In this document: piece by piece, positions 13,111 through 42,119 of the stretch
Position numbering within the stretch: the stretch's first letter is position 1
Layout of the letters: each line of letters starts with the position of its first letter
The notes under the pieces: model-generated
Database searches by the model: none
Seen by the model: only the letters and a program-made list of their open reading frames with translations
What the model was told of the DNA's origin: nothing
DNA from: Somniosus microcephalus
Lineage: Eukaryota
Reading direction: 5' to 3'
Length of the DNA stretch: 64,000 bases
Assembly: GCA_052327205.1 (NCBI GenBank)
Contig: CM126225.1
Coordinates: 6,510,001-6,574,000 of the forward strand
Translations under genes and position numbers: made by a program

Positions 13111-13675
13111 CTACACCGGAATTATTAACTTACCTGTTCTCCCCATAGATGCTGCCTGACCTTCTGAGTGTTTGAAGCATTTTTTATTTGGCTTCAAGTT
13201 TACAGCAGTTTCTGCAGTTTTTATTTGCCTTTTGTATGCTTTTCCTTGAATGGAGTCATGAGTAATTTTATGTCCATCTGAACTATCGGACATAGGCCTT
13301 GATATCCTGTCAGCCACAACACACCTAAGAATATTAACCTGGAAATTACATCTGATATTTGTCTATTATTTTCTTGGAGCCATTAGCTTAGTTAATAGTG
13401 TTAACATAGCTGCAATGAAAGGCTGTATGAACACGATAAGTGTTTGTATCAAATATTGCACACAAGACGATGAGAACAAACTACTTTTTGAAGCAGATCG
13501 GCATAATTGTAATGTGTCATAAAACTTCATAAAGGAAAACTGCTACAAAAACTCTTCCTGACTTCTGTCAGCTGTGGCTCAGAGTGTAGCACCCTCGCCT
13601 CTGAGTCAGAAGATTCTGCATTTAAATCCCACGCCAGAGACTTGAGCACAAAAATCCAGGCTGACAATCCCAGTG

Positions 13676-14302
13676 CAGTACTGAGGGTGTGCTGCACTGT
13701 CGGAGGGTCAGTACTGAGGGAGCGCTGCACTGTCGGAGGGACAGTACTGAGGGAGTGCTGCACTGTCGGAGGGGCAGTACTGAGGGAGCGCCGCACTGTC
13801 GGAGGGGCAGTACTGAGGGAGCGCCGCACTGTCAGAGGGGCAGTACTGAGGGAGTGCTGCACTGTCGGAGGTGCAGTACTGAGGGAGTGCTGCACTGTCG
13901 GAGGGGCAGTACTGAGGGAGTGCTGCACTGTCAGAGGGGCAGTACTGAGGGTGTGCTGCACTGTCGGAGGGGCAGTACTGAGGGAGCGCTGCACTGTCGG
14001 AGGGGCAGTACTGAGGGAGTGCTGCACTGTCGGAGGGGCAGTACTGAGGGAGCGCCGCACTGTTGGAGGGGCAGTACTGAGGGAGCGCCGCACTGTCAGA
14101 GGGGCAGTACTGAGGGAGTGCTGCACTGTCGGAGGTGCAGTACTGAGGGAGTGCTGCACTGTCGGAGGGGCAGTACTGAGGGAGTGCTGCACTGTCGGAG
14201 GGGCAGTACTGAGGGAGTGCTGCACTGTCGAAGGGGCAGTACTGAGGGAATGCTGCACTGTCAGAGGGGCAGTACTGAGGGAGTGCTGCACTGTTGGAGG
14301 TG
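13676..14302 (+). repeat. 33-bp minisatellite, 19 copies
   Basis: Unit cagtactgagggagtgctgcactgtcggagggg; 627/33 = 19. Confidence 0.95.
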
Positions 14303-17790: not shown

Positions 17791-18249
17791 GTACTGGAGG
17801 GACCACAGGTTTAGACACCAGTGGCACGAAATCGTGCTGTGCAATATAAGTGTAAAGGCATGTTAATGTCTTCATATGTAATTCCCCTGTCTGCTATTGT
17901 AACAAAGACATTAATCCATCTAAAATAAAAGAGTTAAAGCCTCTGTTAGCATCGCAGAGAAGCAGAATTTCAGTCTGGTCATTTGTACAGTGTAATTTCA
18001 CACCCTTTATTTCAGTGCTTGGTTGAGAAGCCAAAGGTGAGAATGCAGGATCTATGGCAGGGGCGTCCAACCTGTAACCCGAGAGCCACATGTGGTTCCT
18101 GAGCCCTGGCAATCCAGTTCCTGAAGCCCACAAGGCCTGAATCCTATTCACAATTTATTCCTTATTGGCTGGCGTGTCTTGTTTTAATTTTGTGGACCTG
18201 GAGGTTTAGAAAAGGCTGTTCATAAAGCCAGTCTCATTGAGAAATAAAG

Positions 18250-18605
18250 ACAGGGTTTGATAGGGTAGATGCAGAGAAGATGTTTCCACTTGTGAGTGAG
18301 TCCAAAACTAGGGGCCATAAATATAAGATAATCACTAATAAATCCAATAAAGAATTCAGGAGAAACTTCTTTACCCAGAGAGTGGTGAGAATGTGGAACT
18401 CGCTACCACAGGGAGTGGTTGAGGGAAATAGCAGAGATACATTTAAGGGGAAGCTAGGTAAGTACATGAGGGAGAAAGGAATAGAAGGATATGCTGATGG
18501 GGTGAGATGAAGTAGGGTGGGAGGAGAATGGTGTGGAGCATAAACACCGGCACCAACCAGTGGGGACGAATGGCCTGTTTCTGTGCTGTAAACTCTATGT
18601 AATCC
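18250..18605 (+). mobile_element. CR1 3' fragment
   Basis: MFPLVSESKTRGH..FFTQRVVRMWNSLP; same subfamily as 25360-25676 and about 16295-16420. Confidence 0.85.
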
Positions 18606-18659
18606 TGTGTAAATCACAACACATCTGTCAGTATCAGCAACTTGAGATATATACAAGTT

Positions 18660-19667
18660 AATCAGAGCATGGGTTCAAATCAGAGCATGGGTTCAAATCA
18701 GAGAATGGGTTCAAATCAGAGAATGGGTTCAAATCAGAGCGTGGGTTCAAATCAGAGAATGGGTTCAAATCAGAGCGTGGGTTCAAATCAGAGCATGGGT
18801 TCAAATCAGAGCATGGGTTCAAATCAGAGAATGGGTTCAAATCAGAGCGTGGGTTCAAGTCAGAGAATGGGTTCAAATCAGAGCATGGGTTCAAATCAGA
18901 GCATGGGTTCAAATCAGAGCATGGGCTCAAATCAGAGCATGGGTTCAAATCAGAGAATGGGTTCAAATCAGAGCGTGGGTTCAAATCAGAGCATGTGTTC
19001 AAATCAGAGCATGTGTTCAAATCAGAGAATGGGTTCAAATCAGAGCATGGGTTCAAATCAGAGAATGGGCTCAAATCAGAGAATGGGTTCAAATCAGAGA
19101 ATGGGTTCAAATCAGAGCGTGGGTTCAAATCAGAGAATGGGTTCAAAGCAGAGCGTGGGTTCAAATCAGAGCGTGGGTTCAAATCAGAGCATGGGTTCAA
19201 ATCAGAGCGTGGGTTCAAATCAGAGAATGGGTTCAAATCAGAGCATGGGCTCAAATCAGAGCATGGGCTCAAATCAGAGCATGGGTTCAAATCAGAGCGT
19301 GGGTTCAAATCAGAGTGTGGGTTCAAATCAGAGCGTGGGTTCAAATCAGAGCGTGGGCTCAAATCAGAGCATGGGTCCAAATCAGAGCATGGGTTCAAAT
19401 CAGAGCATGGGTTCAAATCAGAGCATGGGTTCAAATCAGAGCATGGGTTCAAATCAGAGCATGGGTCCAAATCAGAGCGTGGGTTCAAATCAGAGCATTG
19501 GTTCAAATCAGAGCATTGGCTCAAATCAGAGCGTGGGTTCAAATCAGAGCGTGGGTTCAAATCAGAGCATGGGTTCAAATCAGAGCATGGGTTCAAATCA
19601 GAGCGTGGGTTCAAATCAGAGCATGGGTTCAAATCAGAGAATGGGTTCAAATCAGAGCATGGGTTCA
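18660..19667 (+). repeat. 18-bp minisatellite, 56 copies, containing a Pol III B-box
   Basis: Unit aatcagagcatgggttca; 1008/18 = 56. Runs into gggttcaaatcccaccatggcag, a SINE B-box region. Confidence 0.95.
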
Positions 19668-19808
19668 AATCCCACCATGGCAGCTTGAGAATTTGAATTC
19701 AGTCTTTCAAGAAGCCGTTCAAGAAGGCGGCCCATGACAACCTTCTCAAAGAGCAATAAATGCCGGCCTGGCCTGCGACGCCCCCATCTCGAGAATTAAT
19801 GACAAAAA
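19661..19808 (+). mobile_element. SINE remnant (B box, short body, LINE-derived tail)
   Basis: GGTTCAAATCCC then ..ccttctcaaagagcaataaatgccggcc.., similar to the reverse complement of 1780-1875 and to 7950-7990. Confidence 0.6.
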
Positions 19809-22800
19809 CTTAACATGTAGCCTTGGAGGCTTCATAGTCTGTATCTGTATGGCCCACCGATACAAAGGCGTGGACATCCTTGCTCAATTAGACTGATGTC
19901 TCAAACACAGAATCTCCCCATAACTTTGTGGATTTTTAGCCATGGCAGTGATTCAACCAGCGCAGGTCATTGCCTCATACCAAAGTAATCAGTGGCAGAT
20001 TAAACCCCACAATATGGGTTTCACATTCTTTATTCGGTAATTAACCTCTTCGGTGACATCATTAGTGCAGTATTACCAGAAATCATTTGCTGTATATTAC
20101 TGGGAAATTCTAAGCACTCTATATATTATAACGGATTACATGATATTGTCATAAATATCTGTCCCATTACTTAAGAAAGGTCGCGACATTAATTTCTCAG
20201 AAACCTAAATGCTAATCAAGAATTAGATTACATCGAGCAAATATACTTTTGGCTCGTTATCAAGAATCATCGATTGTCGAACAAAAGGCTTTATTTTTTT
20301 GGTGTTGGTTCTGGATTTCTGCCTTGCTGATAAAACCCAATAAAGCGAGTTGACTTAATCGCGGTTGGTTTTCAAGTCTCCTCTTTTACAAGTGCCTGAT
20401 GTGGTTTTAATAGTGTGTGCAGACGCCCAGGGTGCACAGCCAACAAATATGCTGCGAATCACATCTGTTTTTCTTCAAACAGGTTTTACTGAGTCCAAGC
20501 ATTTACACAGTGATAACCTTTCAACCCAACCCCTCCGAAAAGGGTTTGATTGTATTTTCACTCCGATAAAAAGAAGCAATAGGCAGAGAATAGATTTGGA
20601 ACCACACGGAAACCCGTCACAAACACAGAACACCCTCAGATACTTCGATTTTTTAAAGTCCCATTATAATTTTCCTGATTATTATATTTTTGAGGATGTG
20701 CGTGATTTGAAACACGATACAGACAGGGGTTAATGCCATGCAGAAACTGTTTATTTTATTCAATGTTTAAGGTTTATATTTCACATCACCCGTTGAAAGT
20801 TTTCCAAGGCAATCAAGGCGGAAGTCTGAAGCGAGCGCGTCAGTTTGTCATAAGCTTTATTCTTCCATATACACCTACATTAAACATTTATATATCAGCT
20901 CTTGACACTGGCTTTTTCCGGCATTAGCTGTGATTCATTTTCTGCATTCCTGCTGTCTCCGTTTATATTCATTGCGTCTCGTGTTTCGCACCTGTAAGGA
21001 CACCATCAGCGACTCATGGAAGCGCTGCCTCTTGTGATTGTGTGGATCTCTGGGTCCAGCCCTCTGCCAAGCGTTTAACAACTTGGAGCCGGTCCTGAGG
21101 TTTGAGGAAATCAAAGTGCATTTTTTCGTGCTGTGACACCCGGTGTTTACCATTAAAAGGATTCCATTTATTCCCATGTTTTTCGCACGATTTTTTAGTT
21201 TGTTTTATAAAATATTAGATTTCTTCAATGCAAAGTATTTCTTGCTCTACTTGGCTCAATCATCATCTTATAATAGATATGTTTTTTTCTTGCTTGTAGT
21301 TGGCCAATGCTGTACAGTGCTCAGGTAAACAATGTTCAGTTCAACAAATAGCAGTGAAGTAGAGAGAAAACTAAATATAGGACAACTCTAAAACCGTTCC
21401 AAAATGTTAATAACTGAACTTTGTACAGCAGAGAAACATGAACGGTTCTTTTGGCAACCATTTGCGCAGAGAATATAGTGTCGATAGACAGATAGATGAT
21501 AGCAAATGTGATATGGGCAGATAGCTATTTATGTTCATTTAAGCATTAGATAGCATAAAAAGATACAGAAATAATATATACATTATGTATATATGGGTGC
21601 ATCTATGGATAAAATAAATTATATCCATAATATTGTAGTCTGTAGTTACAGTTATCTGTAGATTATATATAAATTGTTGCCTACATATTTCTGTCTGTGC
21701 TTATGCAGACCTATATATTTATATCTATCTCTAACCATGTCAATGTTCCGTTATAATATTCAATAGTGACGATTTGGTGAGTGGTTACATAAGAAAAGTG
21801 AAATTGAAATTGACTAAAAGGATGACATCAAATGGAATTGTCACTGGCTGCCTCTTTAAAGGGGAAAGTCAGAGTGAGTCCACTTTAAGACTAACAAACG
21901 AAAAATTAGTTCCTAACTGGTGCTCCGGGATATTGTATATAAATCGCTGCTGAATATTTTTTTAAGGTTACCACTATTGGCATGATTTTTGGAAAGTCTG
22001 AGGATTTTCAAACAATTCAATGATAAACGCGGTCACCGGCTCCAATAACAGCAGCAGTGAAGTAACCTAGCTGGACCTGTAATAAATGGTAAAATAGTAA
22101 AGGTTTAATTTCTGACTGGATCCGCTGGATCTTGCGGGGGAGCTCGTTAACGACACTTACTCTACATGGGATGCATTATTTACCGAATATACACACATTC
22201 CCGTTCCATTTGGGGTGAAAGGTTGCTATCGTATTGAAAAAAGTCGAGACTATTGAAAGTGTGAAGGAATATAACAGAAATCAGCGTTCAAGTGCAGAGT
22301 TAAAGCCAAACTCGCTCCCTAGCACCGTCCCGAACTCTGGACTCAAAACATAACACATGGAATCAGAGTCACTTCTAACTTTTCCTACCGAAATGATTCG
22401 CCTTTTTAAGGCTGGCTAATTTGATATTTTTGGACTATTGTTTAAATCTTTGGCTGACAGTTTCAGTAGAATGAGGGCTATGGTGTATACAGCAAGACTT
22501 TATTCGGGATCAGAAATTAATTCTACCTTTAAACCAAAGTGAAAGTGTTAGCTGGTGAGAACTGATAGCAACACTTCAGACATTGGGTCCTGTGCGTTCC
22601 TCTGGAAGCTAATGCCCTGATTGTATAAATTGCAATGGGTTCTCAGGTTAGAATTGAAAACGAATACAAGTTTTAAGGTCGTCAGTAGGGATATTTGTGC
22701 CTGGTGTCAAACCTGAGGGAACGCTCTCCGCTTTGAGCTCCCCAATGTAACACCACAATTATATTAAATGCATGTATGTTTAAAAGGCATGCGCCTCACA

Positions 22801-27406: not shown

Positions 27407-27423
27407 TGAACTCTCCGTGAACC
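27407..27423 (-). promoter_or_regulatory. HoxB1 distal 3' DR5 RARE
   Basis: GGTTCA-cggag-AGTTCA on minus; same half-sites and relative position as the Hoxb1/Hoxa1 3' DR5 RAREs. Confidence 0.85.
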
Positions 27424-30867: not shown

Positions 30868-30881
30868 AGGTAAAAAGGTCA
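30868..30881 (+). promoter_or_regulatory. HoxB1 3' DR2 retinoic acid response element
   Basis: AGGTAA-aa-AGGTCA, matching the known Hoxb1 3' DR2 RARE; 1.7 kb past the stop codon. Confidence 0.88.
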
Positions 30882-32569: not shown

Positions 32570-32913
32570 TTAAGAGGTGTGGATGTTCTCTGATGTCGAC
32601 GATCTGGGCGATGTGGATGGCGAGGTAGTTGATGACTTGTCTGATCCGTCCCCCGGCTCCTTTGCAGCGTTGGCGGGGAAGTGGGGAGCGAATCCTTCCT
32701 TTTCTCGCTTCTTCTGCTTCATCCTGCGGTTCTGAAACCAGATCTTCACTTGGGTTTCGTTCAGCTCCAGCGTGGCCGCTATCTCCACTCTCCTGGCGCG
32801 GGTTAGGTACTTGTTAAAGTGGAATTCCTTCTCCAGCTCAGTCAACTGCTTGGTGGTGAAATTGGTTCGTATGGTGTTGGTCTGGCCACCCAATCCGTAT
32901 TCAGCAATTTTGG
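32570..32913 (-). CDS. hoxb1: HoxB1 coding exon 2 (homeodomain)
   Basis: Acceptor ttttcag|CC. Labial-type homeodomain [59 protein letters not shown]; AATLELNE is B1-like. Joined CDS is 936 nt, 311 aa. Confidence 0.95.
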
Positions 32914-33710
32914 CTGAAAAAAATAAAAGGGAAAACAATTAGATGGACCCTACATGAGCAAACGCCCCCACAGCCCGCCCCAACCACCATTAACCAACAA
33001 CTTCAGCACTTGACTGTCCCGGAACTTGATAGAAGCAAAAGATAAAAAAGAGCACACGGCTTTTAGGCTGAATCCAACTCATCTTATTCAAGGACAGGAC
33101 TCTTAAAACAGAACATTAACTCTTAATTAAGCCACTGCAACGCAAATGCGAAATACTCGCTCCCTCCCGTTGGGTTTTATCTAATAAATGTTGGGCCCAA
33201 CTTCTTTTGTGAAGTGCACTAAACCAACTCACTGTGAAACACACATCTTAAAATGGGTAACTTATACACAGAGATCAAGTTTCGCCGAGTGGAGTTACAC
33301 GGACAGGCCTGTGCACTTCACAGTTAAAGCTACAGACCCGCTTTCCACACCAACCTGCCTGTCATTTTCAGGTCAGTTTCATAAATTCAGAATCAACCGG
33401 CCGCTTAGCTCTTATTTACTGAAATTGATTCCGGGAGGGGGGAGGGGCGTCAGCAAATGGGTTACTGCAAAACCATTCGAATACTGTAGCTCTTAATTTG
33501 CAAAGTTCAAAGAGAGGGCAAAGAACTTTTTAAAAATGTACTTTAGACGTTTTCAGAAGCCAATGAATGTTAACGTCAATGATATTTTACAATTTGAAAG
33601 AATTACATTGTGAAAGTTGGAAAGTGCTTGAATTGGATTTCCGCCACTTCCTTGGCTCACTTACAGGTAAGGTAAGGATTAGGGTTAAGGTTAGAGCTGC
33701 TCATACTAAC

Positions 33711-34302
33711 CTGTTTTAGGAGGGTTTCTTTTCACTTTCATCCAGTCAAACGTCTGGCCCGAAGAGGATGAATCAGAGATGCAGCCAGGTTCCTTTTCCC
33801 CCTCTTGAGATGGAGACAGATTAACATAAGTCCCGTACGCCAAACCCTGTTGCTCTTGGCCGTAGGAATGCTGATATTGGCTTGGCCCTGAGACAGCACA
33901 ATAACCGTCTGAAAGCGGATTGACAGTGGATGCTACATTGCCAGTGTACCCCGAGGTTTGAAAGTACGCCCCATCCGATTCTTGATTGAAAAAATAATGG
34001 TGATTGTAACCCGGGTTGCAAGTTTGGGCGGTGTAGTTGTTGGGGCCTGAACCGGTGTATGGGTTTCCTAGACTGGAATGATGCGAGTAACTGGGTGGCT
34101 GGTGCTGATGCTGGAGTGCATTGTGCGCGCTTCCTCCTACTAAGAATCGTCCATCACCATTGCAATTGTCAACGTTACCTGCAGAAGGAGCGAAAGCTGT
34201 TATCCCTTGTTCTGAATGGTGGTAACCCTTGGATGAGTAGGCGCTCGTCCCACGATTACAAATTGCGTACTCTAAGAAGGAGTTCATCCTGGTATTGTCC
34301 AT
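33711..34302 (-). CDS. hoxb1: HoxB1 coding exon 1
   Basis: ATG at 34302 gives MDNTRMNSFLEYAICNRG (PG1 N-terminus) and hexapeptide TFDWMKVKRNPPKT. Donor G|GTTAGT at 33711/33710. 592 nt, phase 1. Confidence 0.95.
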
Positions 34303-34424
34303 CTGCCAGTGATGGACGGTCAACCTGTTCGGTATCTCCCTGCCCCTGAAACGCCAGGCACTATGTCACCCAGTAAACTTCGTCCATGGCTCGCTGGCAA
34401 TCAAACGATCTCACTCAAGAGGAC

Positions 34425-39600: not shown

Positions 39601-42119
39601 TCCTAGAATTTCCTGGAGTCCCCGCGCTCAAACTGTATTAAACACGTGAACAGAATTCCTCTGTACAAGGGAGCCAATTCTGCCATCTGCTCTTAGAATC
39701 TCTTAATAGCCATGGAGCTTTCTCTCTCTTCACATGTTTCTATCTGTCCTTCTCATTGTGTCTGTCTCTGCCTTTTCCTGTTTTTCTCCATCTCTTAGTA
39801 TATTTCTCTATGTGTCACTTTGTATGTCTTGGCCTCAAACTTCTTCTCTTTCGCTTTTGGGTCCTTCTCTGGCTATTTAAAAAAATTGCTTATTCGTACG
39901 TTTATTTATTCTTCCTCTCTGTCTCTGCATCTTTTTTATGTCTGTTTTTCACTGTGCTCACCACTCTTCCATTTAGATGCTGAAAACCCGAAGCGTGCTA
40001 TTGTTATAGAAACACCACAAACGCTGCCTTGCCTCTAGTGACCAGGCGAGAATGTTTCCTTGTGTGATTTGTATTTTTTGAAAACCCATTGCGCACTAAC
40101 AGGCTAACTGCAGCCTGTAATATAAGTAGCGTTAGACGGGAGGCAGAGAGTTATTCAAATAGGAACAGCGCCTAAAATACGAAAGATGAAGCAAAGATCG
40201 ATAAACGAAAAGAATAATTGAAGGAACACGAGACAAAGGGGGGGGGGGAGGATAGCGCTGAAAAGTTAAGACATGAGGGAGTGTAAAAGAGAATTCGATT
40301 GTGTAAGTGCTTCAAAGTATCTTAAGAAGCATAAATAGGAAGCAAAACTTGAGATTTTAAAATACAATGGAACAAAGACAACAAAAAACCGGTGCAGATG
40401 AAAATATTGTAGAATAAATCAGTAAACAGTAGAGTGTTTTCTGCCTGGTACACGCACGGCGCCATTTTGAAGGGACAAGGCGGATCCGGTGATCCTGGTC
40501 TAAGCAGAATTTCCCAAGGCACGGCCAAATTTCTGCCTTTGCTTGGGGAACACCCGTGACTAGGCAAATGCGTAATATGATTTATTTTTTGTGTCACTGC
40601 GATTGATTTCTCGAGATGACCCCCCCCCCCCCCATTCATAAAGCAGCTTGATGTATGAGTTTAAGTTAAAAAAAATTACATCTTGTAAATAAAGCTCCCC
40701 TGGCAGGGCGTGGGGTGGGGGGGGGGGGGGGGGGGAAAGTAGAGCACAATTGCAAATTAAAAAAATGAACTGATGATCGATGTTGTTAGTTATTTTCTGG
40801 CGAAGATTTCCCACTCAGGCTCGGACAATGTTTCTCCTGTCTTAACCTAGGTCTTGGCCTCTGTTAATGTCTCAGCACCTCCTCTTGCTTTTATTCCCTA
40901 ACTTCTTTTATCCTTTTTCCTGGTTCGCCAAAGTTTACGTTTTAATTTCCTCGCGGTCTCAGCCTCTCTCGCCATTCATTTTTCGCCATAGTGTTATATA
41001 TCAGAGAGAGAGAGAGAGAGAGAAAGAACTTGGCAATTACACCAATACATACAATCCCGGGGCATTGGAAACAACACATTGCACCAACTAAACAAGGTTA
41101 AATTTCAGGAGATCCTCACAGAATGAGATATTTATTATCTTTTAAAAGTGTCCTTTAAATTCTTTCAGCCAGCAATGGTTAGTGAAAAGAAGCGGATTCG
41201 TTTGGAAGGATGGGCAAGGAATCACATTGAGCCCCTCCCCATAGGTCTGTATTTATAATAATTGTTTTCCACATTTTTGGTGGCTTGTTTTATGTTTTAA
41301 GTTGCTTAAATACTGTTTTAAGCTAAAAATTAAAATAGAAATTCTATCGAATAACATACATTTCAGCACAGGGGGTGGGGTGGCCATTCTGCCCATCGAG
41401 CCTGTGGTGGCCCTTGCTTCATGTTGGAGGCATCTACTTTAACCGAATTTCCCTCATCCTTTCATCTTTTACTTCTTCAAGTAGTTATCTATAGAATCAC
41501 TCTACAATGTTCTTAGAAGATTTATTTTCAGAAATCGGCGAAGTCAGGGAGCTGGGAATCTCATTGAGCGCCTGGATGGGGAGTTGATTGAATAATTGTT
41601 GATTTGTTCATTCACTAACGGGGCGGGGGTGGGGAGAGGGAGGGAGGAGGGTTAAACACAGCGAGAAATTAAATTAACATTCAAACATACAATTATCTTT
41701 TAAAATACACATTTGGTATAGCCGTTTCACTAAGACGTCTTGGAACGTGAAGTGAACGCAAAACATGTACAATTGACAGCAAAAATAGCGGAAAGGAGAG
41801 CTCCAAAGGAGGTTAAAACATATGGTTATCCATCCTGTTTGTTGCTTAAAGCGATGGATTGATACAACCCATTTACTAGACTATATGACACCTGCGATTT
41901 TATTGTTGTAGATCTACCGCGACCAACCTAGTATTCAGGATAGACACATTTCTCCTTAGATAAAAATATTGTGATTTACGTTATTTTTTTTTACAGCGAA
42001 TATTTTCTGCACAAGCTATTGTTGTCTTAAATCACGGTGCATATATTTCTAATAGAGTAAGCACACTAACAGCCACCTTGAAACACAGACAGTGAAGGTT
42101 CATTAAAGAATTAAGTCGT

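What the first reader, a model, noticed from the sequence alone, without database searches (positions are those of the whole stretch)
18660..19808. Tandem array of about 48 intact Pol III B-boxes at the edge of the HoxB domain: candidate SINE-born TFIIIC barrier
Seen: 56 copies of an 18-mer, of which about 48 keep GTTCAANNC (B-box consensus GWTCRANNC). The commonest variants (CA/AA/CG) fall outside that motif. The last unit runs into GGTTCAAATCCC and a SINE-like body and tail, so the array is an amplified SINE B-box; I see no A box ahead of it. It lies where dense repeats stop. Known: TFIIIC bound to B-boxes (tDNAs, ETC sites, some SINEs) can act as a chromatin boundary. Inference: this may be an exapted multivalent barrier for the 3' end of HoxB. 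It could equally be neutral slippage. Each unit also carries a GGTTCA nuclear-receptor half-site at 18-bp period.
Basis: partly seen in the sequence, partly recalled or inferred. Interest (0 to 1): 0.7.

Follow-up and report, generated by a model that had tools for sequence, protein, structure and literature searches.

The report
SINE-born minisatellite beside shark HoxB
An 18-base piece of an old jumping element is repeated 56 times just outside a shark Hox gene cluster; similar repeats are common in this genome and the other two Hox clusters have equally sharp edges without one, so it is likely an ordinary, functionless copying accident rather than a chromatin barrier.

Summary
The array is real: 56 units of 18 bp, 48 with GTTCAANNC, running into a truncated tRNA-type SINE at the point where repeats thin out and CpG rises, 13 kb 3' of HoxB1. 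The barrier reading is not supported. Two full-length copies of the same SINE elsewhere carry this unit once, between two AATC words, so the array is likely a slippage expansion. It sits in a headless SINE that is itself nested in a MITE-like element. Variation is not significantly lower inside the B box (2 of 9 variant alleles in 7 of 18 positions, P=0.25). Tandem B-box-consensus triplets are common genome-wide (3,834 overlapping matches), including a 10-copy sister array from the same SINE. HoxA and HoxD show similar repeat edges with no array. Tandem arrays occur about once per 30 kb here. It fits the SINE-derived satellites described in reptiles, and this scan reported other SINE-born minisatellites in this genome before. 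TFIIIC binding, methylation and Hi-C are untested, so a barrier role keeps about 6%.

The parts
18660..19671 (+). Minisatellite, 56.2 x 18 bp, consensus AATCAGAGCATGGGTTCA; 48 B-box core matches, 46 GGTTCA half-sites
19650..19808 (+). Parent tRNA-type SINE copy: last unit with the full B box (19662), short body with a large internal deletion, 3' end and A-rich tail; A-box head missing
   Evidence: family head
18058..18662 (+). Left part of a short dispersed MITE-like element (imperfect terminal inverted repeat at 18058-18069), interrupted by a LINE fragment
   Evidence: MITE label is my inference from the inverted ends
18242..18612 (-). High-copy repeat nested in the MITE-like element, likely a CR1-type LINE 3' fragment (family label and strand recalled/inferred)
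   Evidence: interval 18242-18612
19806..19882 (+). Right part of the same MITE-like element, ending in the matching inverted repeat (19871-19882; 9 of 12 letters match the left end)
   Evidence: 4 of 11 family copies align here above the best of 200 shuffles
27407..27423 (-). Perfect DR5 retinoic-acid-response-type element, beside sequence conserved with the HoxA and HoxD 3' flanks; context, not part of the array
   Evidence: identity with the known Hox1 3' RARE is recalled
30868..30881 (+). DR2 element with one mismatch, likely the Hoxb1 3' DR2 RARE (recalled); context
32570..34365 (-). HoxB1, two exons (ORF bounds); nearest gene, about 13 kb from the array
   Evidence: paralogue name from cluster gene set (recalled)

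Best explanation
The array is a SINE-derived minisatellite that likely grew by replication slippage and unequal exchange from a single 18-bp stretch bounded by two AATC words around the SINE's B box, and it likely has no selected function. Shown: the nested anatomy (MITE-like element > headless SINE > array) and the single-copy precursor state in two other SINE copies. Inferred steps: (1) the SINE landed in the MITE-like element; (2) its head was lost, at insertion or later, through mispairing with a MITE stretch that matches the unit at 13 of 18 letters, which explains the junction at AAT, about 14 missing MITE letters and no target-site duplication; (3) the AATC...AATC stretch was duplicated; (4) the array expanded and shuffled its variants. 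Its place at the edge likely reflects the edge being set by constraint on the HoxB 3' regulatory DNA, with this nest the last tolerated insertion.
For: Full SINEs L112 and L113 carry the unit once behind an intact head. A sister array at C6:4.67 Mb amplifies the same SINE's B box 10 times with another 20-bp unit. No significant B-box sparing: 2 of 9 variant alleles in 7 of 18 positions, 3.5 expected, P=0.25; positions 5-8 and 11 outside the box are also invariant. Tandem GGTTCRANNC triplets: 3,834 overlapping matches genome-wide, 6 loci in the first 100 rows. Arrays of 5 or more copies and 200 bp or more: 8 in 220 kb beside HoxB, 7 in 200 kb of arbitrary stretches, 1 each in 70 kb at HoxA and HoxD. 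HoxA and HoxD repeat edges lie about 9 and 7 kb from Hox1 with no array and background B-box density. The anatomy matches the sSat pattern in PMC10702118.
Against: The position is striking: the CpG change point (19715, range 18251-20563) includes the array. This unit type is unique in 6.45 Gb. One search gave 2.6 times more B-box triplets than the reversed control (3,834 vs 1,448), although went the other way (536 vs 996). The per-position test has only 9 alleles and little power. The SINE tail is shared with a related organism 2.3% diverged, so the parent copy has persisted at this edge. No chromatin data were available.
Confidence: 0.85

Rival explanations
1. Exapted multivalent TFIIIC barrier: tauB binds several units without Pol III (ETC-like) and blocks spread of heterochromatin or methylation into the HoxB 3' domain.
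For: 48 core matches; by my mapping most units keep 4 of the 5 base-contacted positions named for human tauB; the position coincides with the CpG and repeat edge; five B boxes contribute to the S. pombe IR boundary (PMC4502379); deleting the B boxes abolishes ALOXE3 barrier activity (PMC11436800).
Against: No significant B-box sparing; all units have A at the contacted G70 position and only 1 has the final CC (A is within the consensus, so binding is not excluded); tauB covers about 35 bp against an 18-bp period, so at most every second unit could be bound (inference); HoxA/D edges lack arrays; B-box-consensus arrays are common elsewhere.
Confidence: 0.06
2. The SINE copy or the array fixes the methylation edge passively, as a methylated repeat that limits the hypomethylated domain, like polymorphic mouse B2 copies, with or without TFIIIC.
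For: B2 insertions can set methylation boundaries in cis, mostly without CTCF (PMC8136502 passages); CG, CA and TG all occur at unit positions 9-10, as CpG decay would give; the SINE tail is shared with organism A.
Against: The CA state could also come from the MITE stretch at the junction; CpG depletion is a long-term germline signal, not a map of the present boundary; the change point is loose (2.3 kb range).
Confidence: 0.06
3. Multimeric nuclear-receptor element: 46 GGTTCA half-sites recruit RAR/RXR or orphan receptors and tune HoxB1.
For: 46 half-sites; HoxB1 is retinoic-acid responsive (established knowledge).
Against: An 18-bp period gives a 12-bp spacer, not DR1, DR2 or DR5; proper DR5 and DR2 elements lie at 27407 and 30868 in constrained DNA; the half-site is simply part of the B box.
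Confidence: 0.02

Closest known systems
SINE-derived satellites (sSat) of squamates, Vassetzky et al. 2023, PMC10702118 (seen: abstract, find passages, sections 5 and 19)
   Same: Tandem units from part of a SINE with a longer terminal unit running on to the SINE end; snake sSat3 also includes box B; about 90% unit similarity; locus-specific variants; many single-locus instances; preference for distal chromosome regions (this array is 6.5 Mb from the end of a 68 Mb contig).
   Different: Unit is 18 bp, not 67-215 nt; single-locus unit, not a multi-locus family; shark host; lies next to a Hox cluster.
ETC sites and the S. pombe IR-L/IR-R five-B-box boundary (PMC12409998 and PMC4502379, passages seen)
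   Same: B boxes without an A box, clustered, at a domain edge.
   Different: Those are defined by shown TFIIIC occupancy and extended B boxes, five within 327 bp; here the units lack the final C, are spaced below the tauB footprint, and binding is untested.
Mouse B2 SINE boundary copies (PMC8136502, passages seen)
   Same: tRNA-type SINE at a methylation edge.
   Different: Those are intact SINEs with allele-level evidence; this copy is headless and internally deleted, and no methylome is available.

Membership tests
SINE-derived satellite (sSat) | Tandem unit derives from part of a SINE | tested here: met
   The unit matches the once-present stretch of L112/L113; 17 of 18 letters for the CG variant against L113
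SINE-derived satellite (sSat) | Longer terminal unit continues to the SINE end | tested here: met
   Last unit runs into body and tail
SINE-derived satellite (sSat) | High unit similarity, at least 4 units | tested here: met
   56 units, mean pairwise difference 7.1%
SINE-derived satellite (sSat) | Multi-locus family of one unit (only the major sSats) | tested here: not met
   Unit arrays found only here; the paper also counts single-locus instances, so this makes it a minor type, not a non-member
ETC / TFIIIC boundary element | B-box core present | tested here: met
   48 of 56 units
ETC / TFIIIC boundary element | Extended or full 11-bp B box | tested here: not met
   1 of 56 has GGTTCRANNCC, 0 have GGTTCGA; the vertebrate extended motif itself could not be read (paper not held)
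ETC / TFIIIC boundary element | Selective conservation of the motif | tested here: inconclusive
   P=0.25 for sparing, 9 alleles only
ETC / TFIIIC boundary element | TFIIIC bound without TFIIIB and Pol III | not testable with these tools
   Needs ChIP or EMSA
ETC / TFIIIC boundary element | Barrier or enhancer-blocking activity dependent on the B box | not testable with these tools
   Needs reporter assay
Retinoic acid response element | Half-sites spaced DR1, DR2 or DR5 | tested here: not met
   No DR1/2/5 match (up to 1 mismatch) inside the array

The most novel reading that the evidence does not exclude
A young SINE B-box array was captured at the HoxB 3' edge in one shark lineage and now loads a row of up to about 28 TFIIIC complexes that sharpens the methylation boundary: a lineage-specific, length-tunable Pol III-type insulator at a vertebrate Hox cluster.
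Probability: 0.06. Interest if true: 0.65.

Novelty: new member of a known kind. Interest (0 to 1): 0.15.

Why it matters
As read here it is a tidy example of how a SINE fragment becomes a minisatellite, with the unamplified precursor and an independent sister expansion visible in the same genome; it extends the reptile sSat pattern to a shark. If the barrier reading were true, it would be a naturally multimerised TFIIIC insulator at a Hox cluster, with copy number as a dial. My searches (listings only) showed no paper on either point.

Tried and rejected
Orthologous array in a relative: contigs of organism A (runs X5, X1; 55% and 95% of the runs read) gave no cover of the tandem units at 18680-18713, while organisms D and E (X8, X10) did. 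This hints that the array is younger than the SINE, but it is a hole, no contig joins across it, and all four runs also miss 18600-18619, so I do not count it as evidence. Summed depth over the units was about 61 and 99 times single-copy depth in X8 and X10; the tool states this is no copy number, so length polymorphism is not claimed. CTCF: a recalled consensus with up to 1 mismatch found 0 sites in the window and 1 in 70 kb of HoxA/D flank; too crude to use. Single change-point fits for HoxA and HoxD were captured by CpG-rich repeats and are uninformative. No tRNA gene and no Rfam family at the array. Long open frames across the array follow from a stop-free 18-bp unit and were rejected as genes; no RNA data were examined. 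Look-alike stretches in other scanned genomes: none. Three papers on vertebrate tDNA/ETC insulators were not held. No supplements were read. SKAP1 synteny was not checked.

Full report
Observation. Tandem Repeats Finder gives 18660-19671, period 18, 56.2 copies, 93% matches, no indels. Of 56 full units, 48 give GTTCAANNC and 46 GGTTCA; 13 unit types occur, three of them making up 42 copies. Only the last unit has the longer GGTTCRANNCC and none has GGTTCGA. Three recalled A-box patterns found nothing in 18401-19680.

Setting. The window holds Hox1, Hox2 and Hox3 on the minus strand. The genome is 6.45 Gb. A homeodomain search shows this cluster on C24 with ten close genes and an eleventh about 78 kb further on, and two other compact clusters on C5 and C4. 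From the recalled shark gene sets and the N-termini these are HoxB, HoxA and HoxD. Against a 559-kb library of genome stretches, repeats cover much of 1-19.8 kb and then only three short stretches in 44 kb. The chance that C is followed by G rises from 8.5% to 13.1% at 19715 (range 18251-20563; array masked). So the edge is real and the array lies at it.

Anatomy. The sequence after the array belongs to an abundant SINE family (1,118 first-look candidates, 40 scored; about 10 copies per 200 kb). Two full-length copies elsewhere, L112 and L113, carry the same 18-bp stretch once, between two AATC words and behind an intact head. The window copy lacks that head and most of the body. Both flanks belong to one short dispersed element: the left flank matches 26 other places, the right flank continues it in 4 of 11 copies above the best of 200 shuffles (7 of 11 did not), and the ends at 18058 and 19882 are imperfect inverted repeats. 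I call it MITE-like by inference. About 14 of its letters are missing at the junction (copy L138), and that stretch aligns without gaps to the first unit (13 of 18 letters by hand count). This suggests the SINE head was lost by mispairing with the target. The array is therefore not the last repeat: the SINE tail and the MITE-like end, about 210 bp, lie between it and unique DNA.

Is the B box spared? Nine variant alleles occur. Two fall in the seven constrained positions against 3.5 expected (P=0.25); by position, 2 of 7 against 6 of 11 vary (P=0.37). One core-breaking allele has spread to 6 units on four backgrounds, as unequal exchange or conversion would give.

How common are such arrays? 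This unit is arrayed only here. Three tandem exact GTTCAAATCC occur at 6 other loci. One, at C6:4.67 Mb, is the same SINE family with its B box repeated 10 times in a different 20-bp unit; another, at C3:88.04 Mb, is a 1.2-kb array of B-box-like units. The broader GGTTCRANNC triplet gives 3,834 overlapping matches against 1,448 for the reversed control, with 6 loci in the 100 rows shown; the GTTCAAAT triplet gives 536 against 996. These counts are dominated by a few long arrays, so I read them as common, with no consistent enrichment. Tandem arrays of any kind (period 10 or more, 5 or more copies, 200 bp or more) number 8 in 220 kb beside HoxB, 7 in 20 arbitrary 10-kb stretches, and 1 each in 70 kb at HoxA and HoxD. 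At roughly one per 30 kb, an array within a kilobase or so of a given edge is a several-percent event, and it was noticed after the fact.

Other Hox edges. HoxA turns repeat-dense about 9 kb past Hox1 and HoxD about 7 kb past it, the latter more gradually. Neither has an array there, and B-box matches near the edges (6 in 12 kb, 7 in 16 kb) are near background, 0.33 per kb. Gnathostome Hox clusters are known to be nearly free of repeats (PMC5504073, passages). In the window, the repeat-poor 3' zone holds a perfect DR5 at 27407-27423 beside sequence conserved with the HoxA and HoxD flanks, and a DR2 at 30868; I recall these as the Hox1 3' retinoic acid elements. Constraint on such DNA is enough to explain the edge.

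Relatives. Contigs of organism A cover 19753-22000 with 52-53 substitutions in 2,248 bases, including the SINE tail and the MITE-like end, so the parent insertion is shared with it. Contigs of organisms D and E cover the tandem units; X8 may be the source of the assembly. Whether organism A has the array remains open.

Could TFIIIC bind? The human tauB structure resolves 35 bp and names base contacts at G66, T68, C69, G70 and G74 (bioRxiv 2023.05.16.540835, passages). By my mapping most units keep four of these and carry A at the fifth, which the consensus allows. Binding is possible, but an 18-bp period would let at most every second unit be occupied. B-box clusters do contribute to boundaries in S. 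pombe (PMC4502379, passages) and at ALOXE3 (PMC11436800, passages), and mouse B2 copies can set methylation edges (PMC8136502, passages), so the idea is plausible in principle. Nothing here shows it for this locus.

Comparison. [quoted passage not shown] I reached that paper through earlier notes of this scan, which report other SINE-born minisatellites in this genome. Listings showed no paper on shark SINE minisatellites or on TFIIIC at a Hox boundary; this library lacks most subscription papers. PMC12409998 and PMC7786948 were seen as passages only.

Verdict. Observation confirmed; origin confirmed and refined; barrier function not supported. Neutral SINE-derived minisatellite about 85%, TFIIIC barrier about 6%. 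Interest 0.15.

Noticed in passing
window 13675-14300; L060, L061, L062: Five arrays of one 33-bp unit within 220 kb 3' of HoxB, up to 70 copies; the same family was noted earlier by this scan.
   Followed up: partly
L055 2283-3224: 57 copies of a 17-mer, same size class as the B-box array but with no B box; a natural matched control.
   Followed up: no
L087 4930-5131 (G000 C6): Ten copies of a 20-bp unit with a full B box and CpG-rich spacer, 99% identical, inside a copy of the same SINE family; a very young sister expansion.
   Followed up: partly
window 40440-40686: Rfam HOTAIRM1_2 match (40.8 bits, gathering 37) between Hox1 and Hox2 of this HoxB cluster; part of it aligns to the HoxA flank, so likely a paralogous conserved element.
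   Followed up: partly
window 20020-20260: Extra contigs lay here at 85% likeness in all four runs although the repeat library shows nothing; a low-copy repeat or old conserved element just inside the edge.
   Followed up: no
window 20723: Organism A carries 27 extra letters here relative to the window.
   Followed up: no
G000 C33:38.05-38.37 Mb: A fourth, loose group of Hox-like homeoboxes spread over 320 kb, one with an in-frame stop; likely the HoxC remnants.
   Followed up: no
G000 C1:234.55, 281.80 and 447.17 Mb: A multi-locus tandem family whose unit carries GGTTCGAGTCC, a closer B-box match than the present array.
   Followed up: no
window 23106: A further DR5-like site with one mismatch, 3.4 kb inside the edge.
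   Followed up: no
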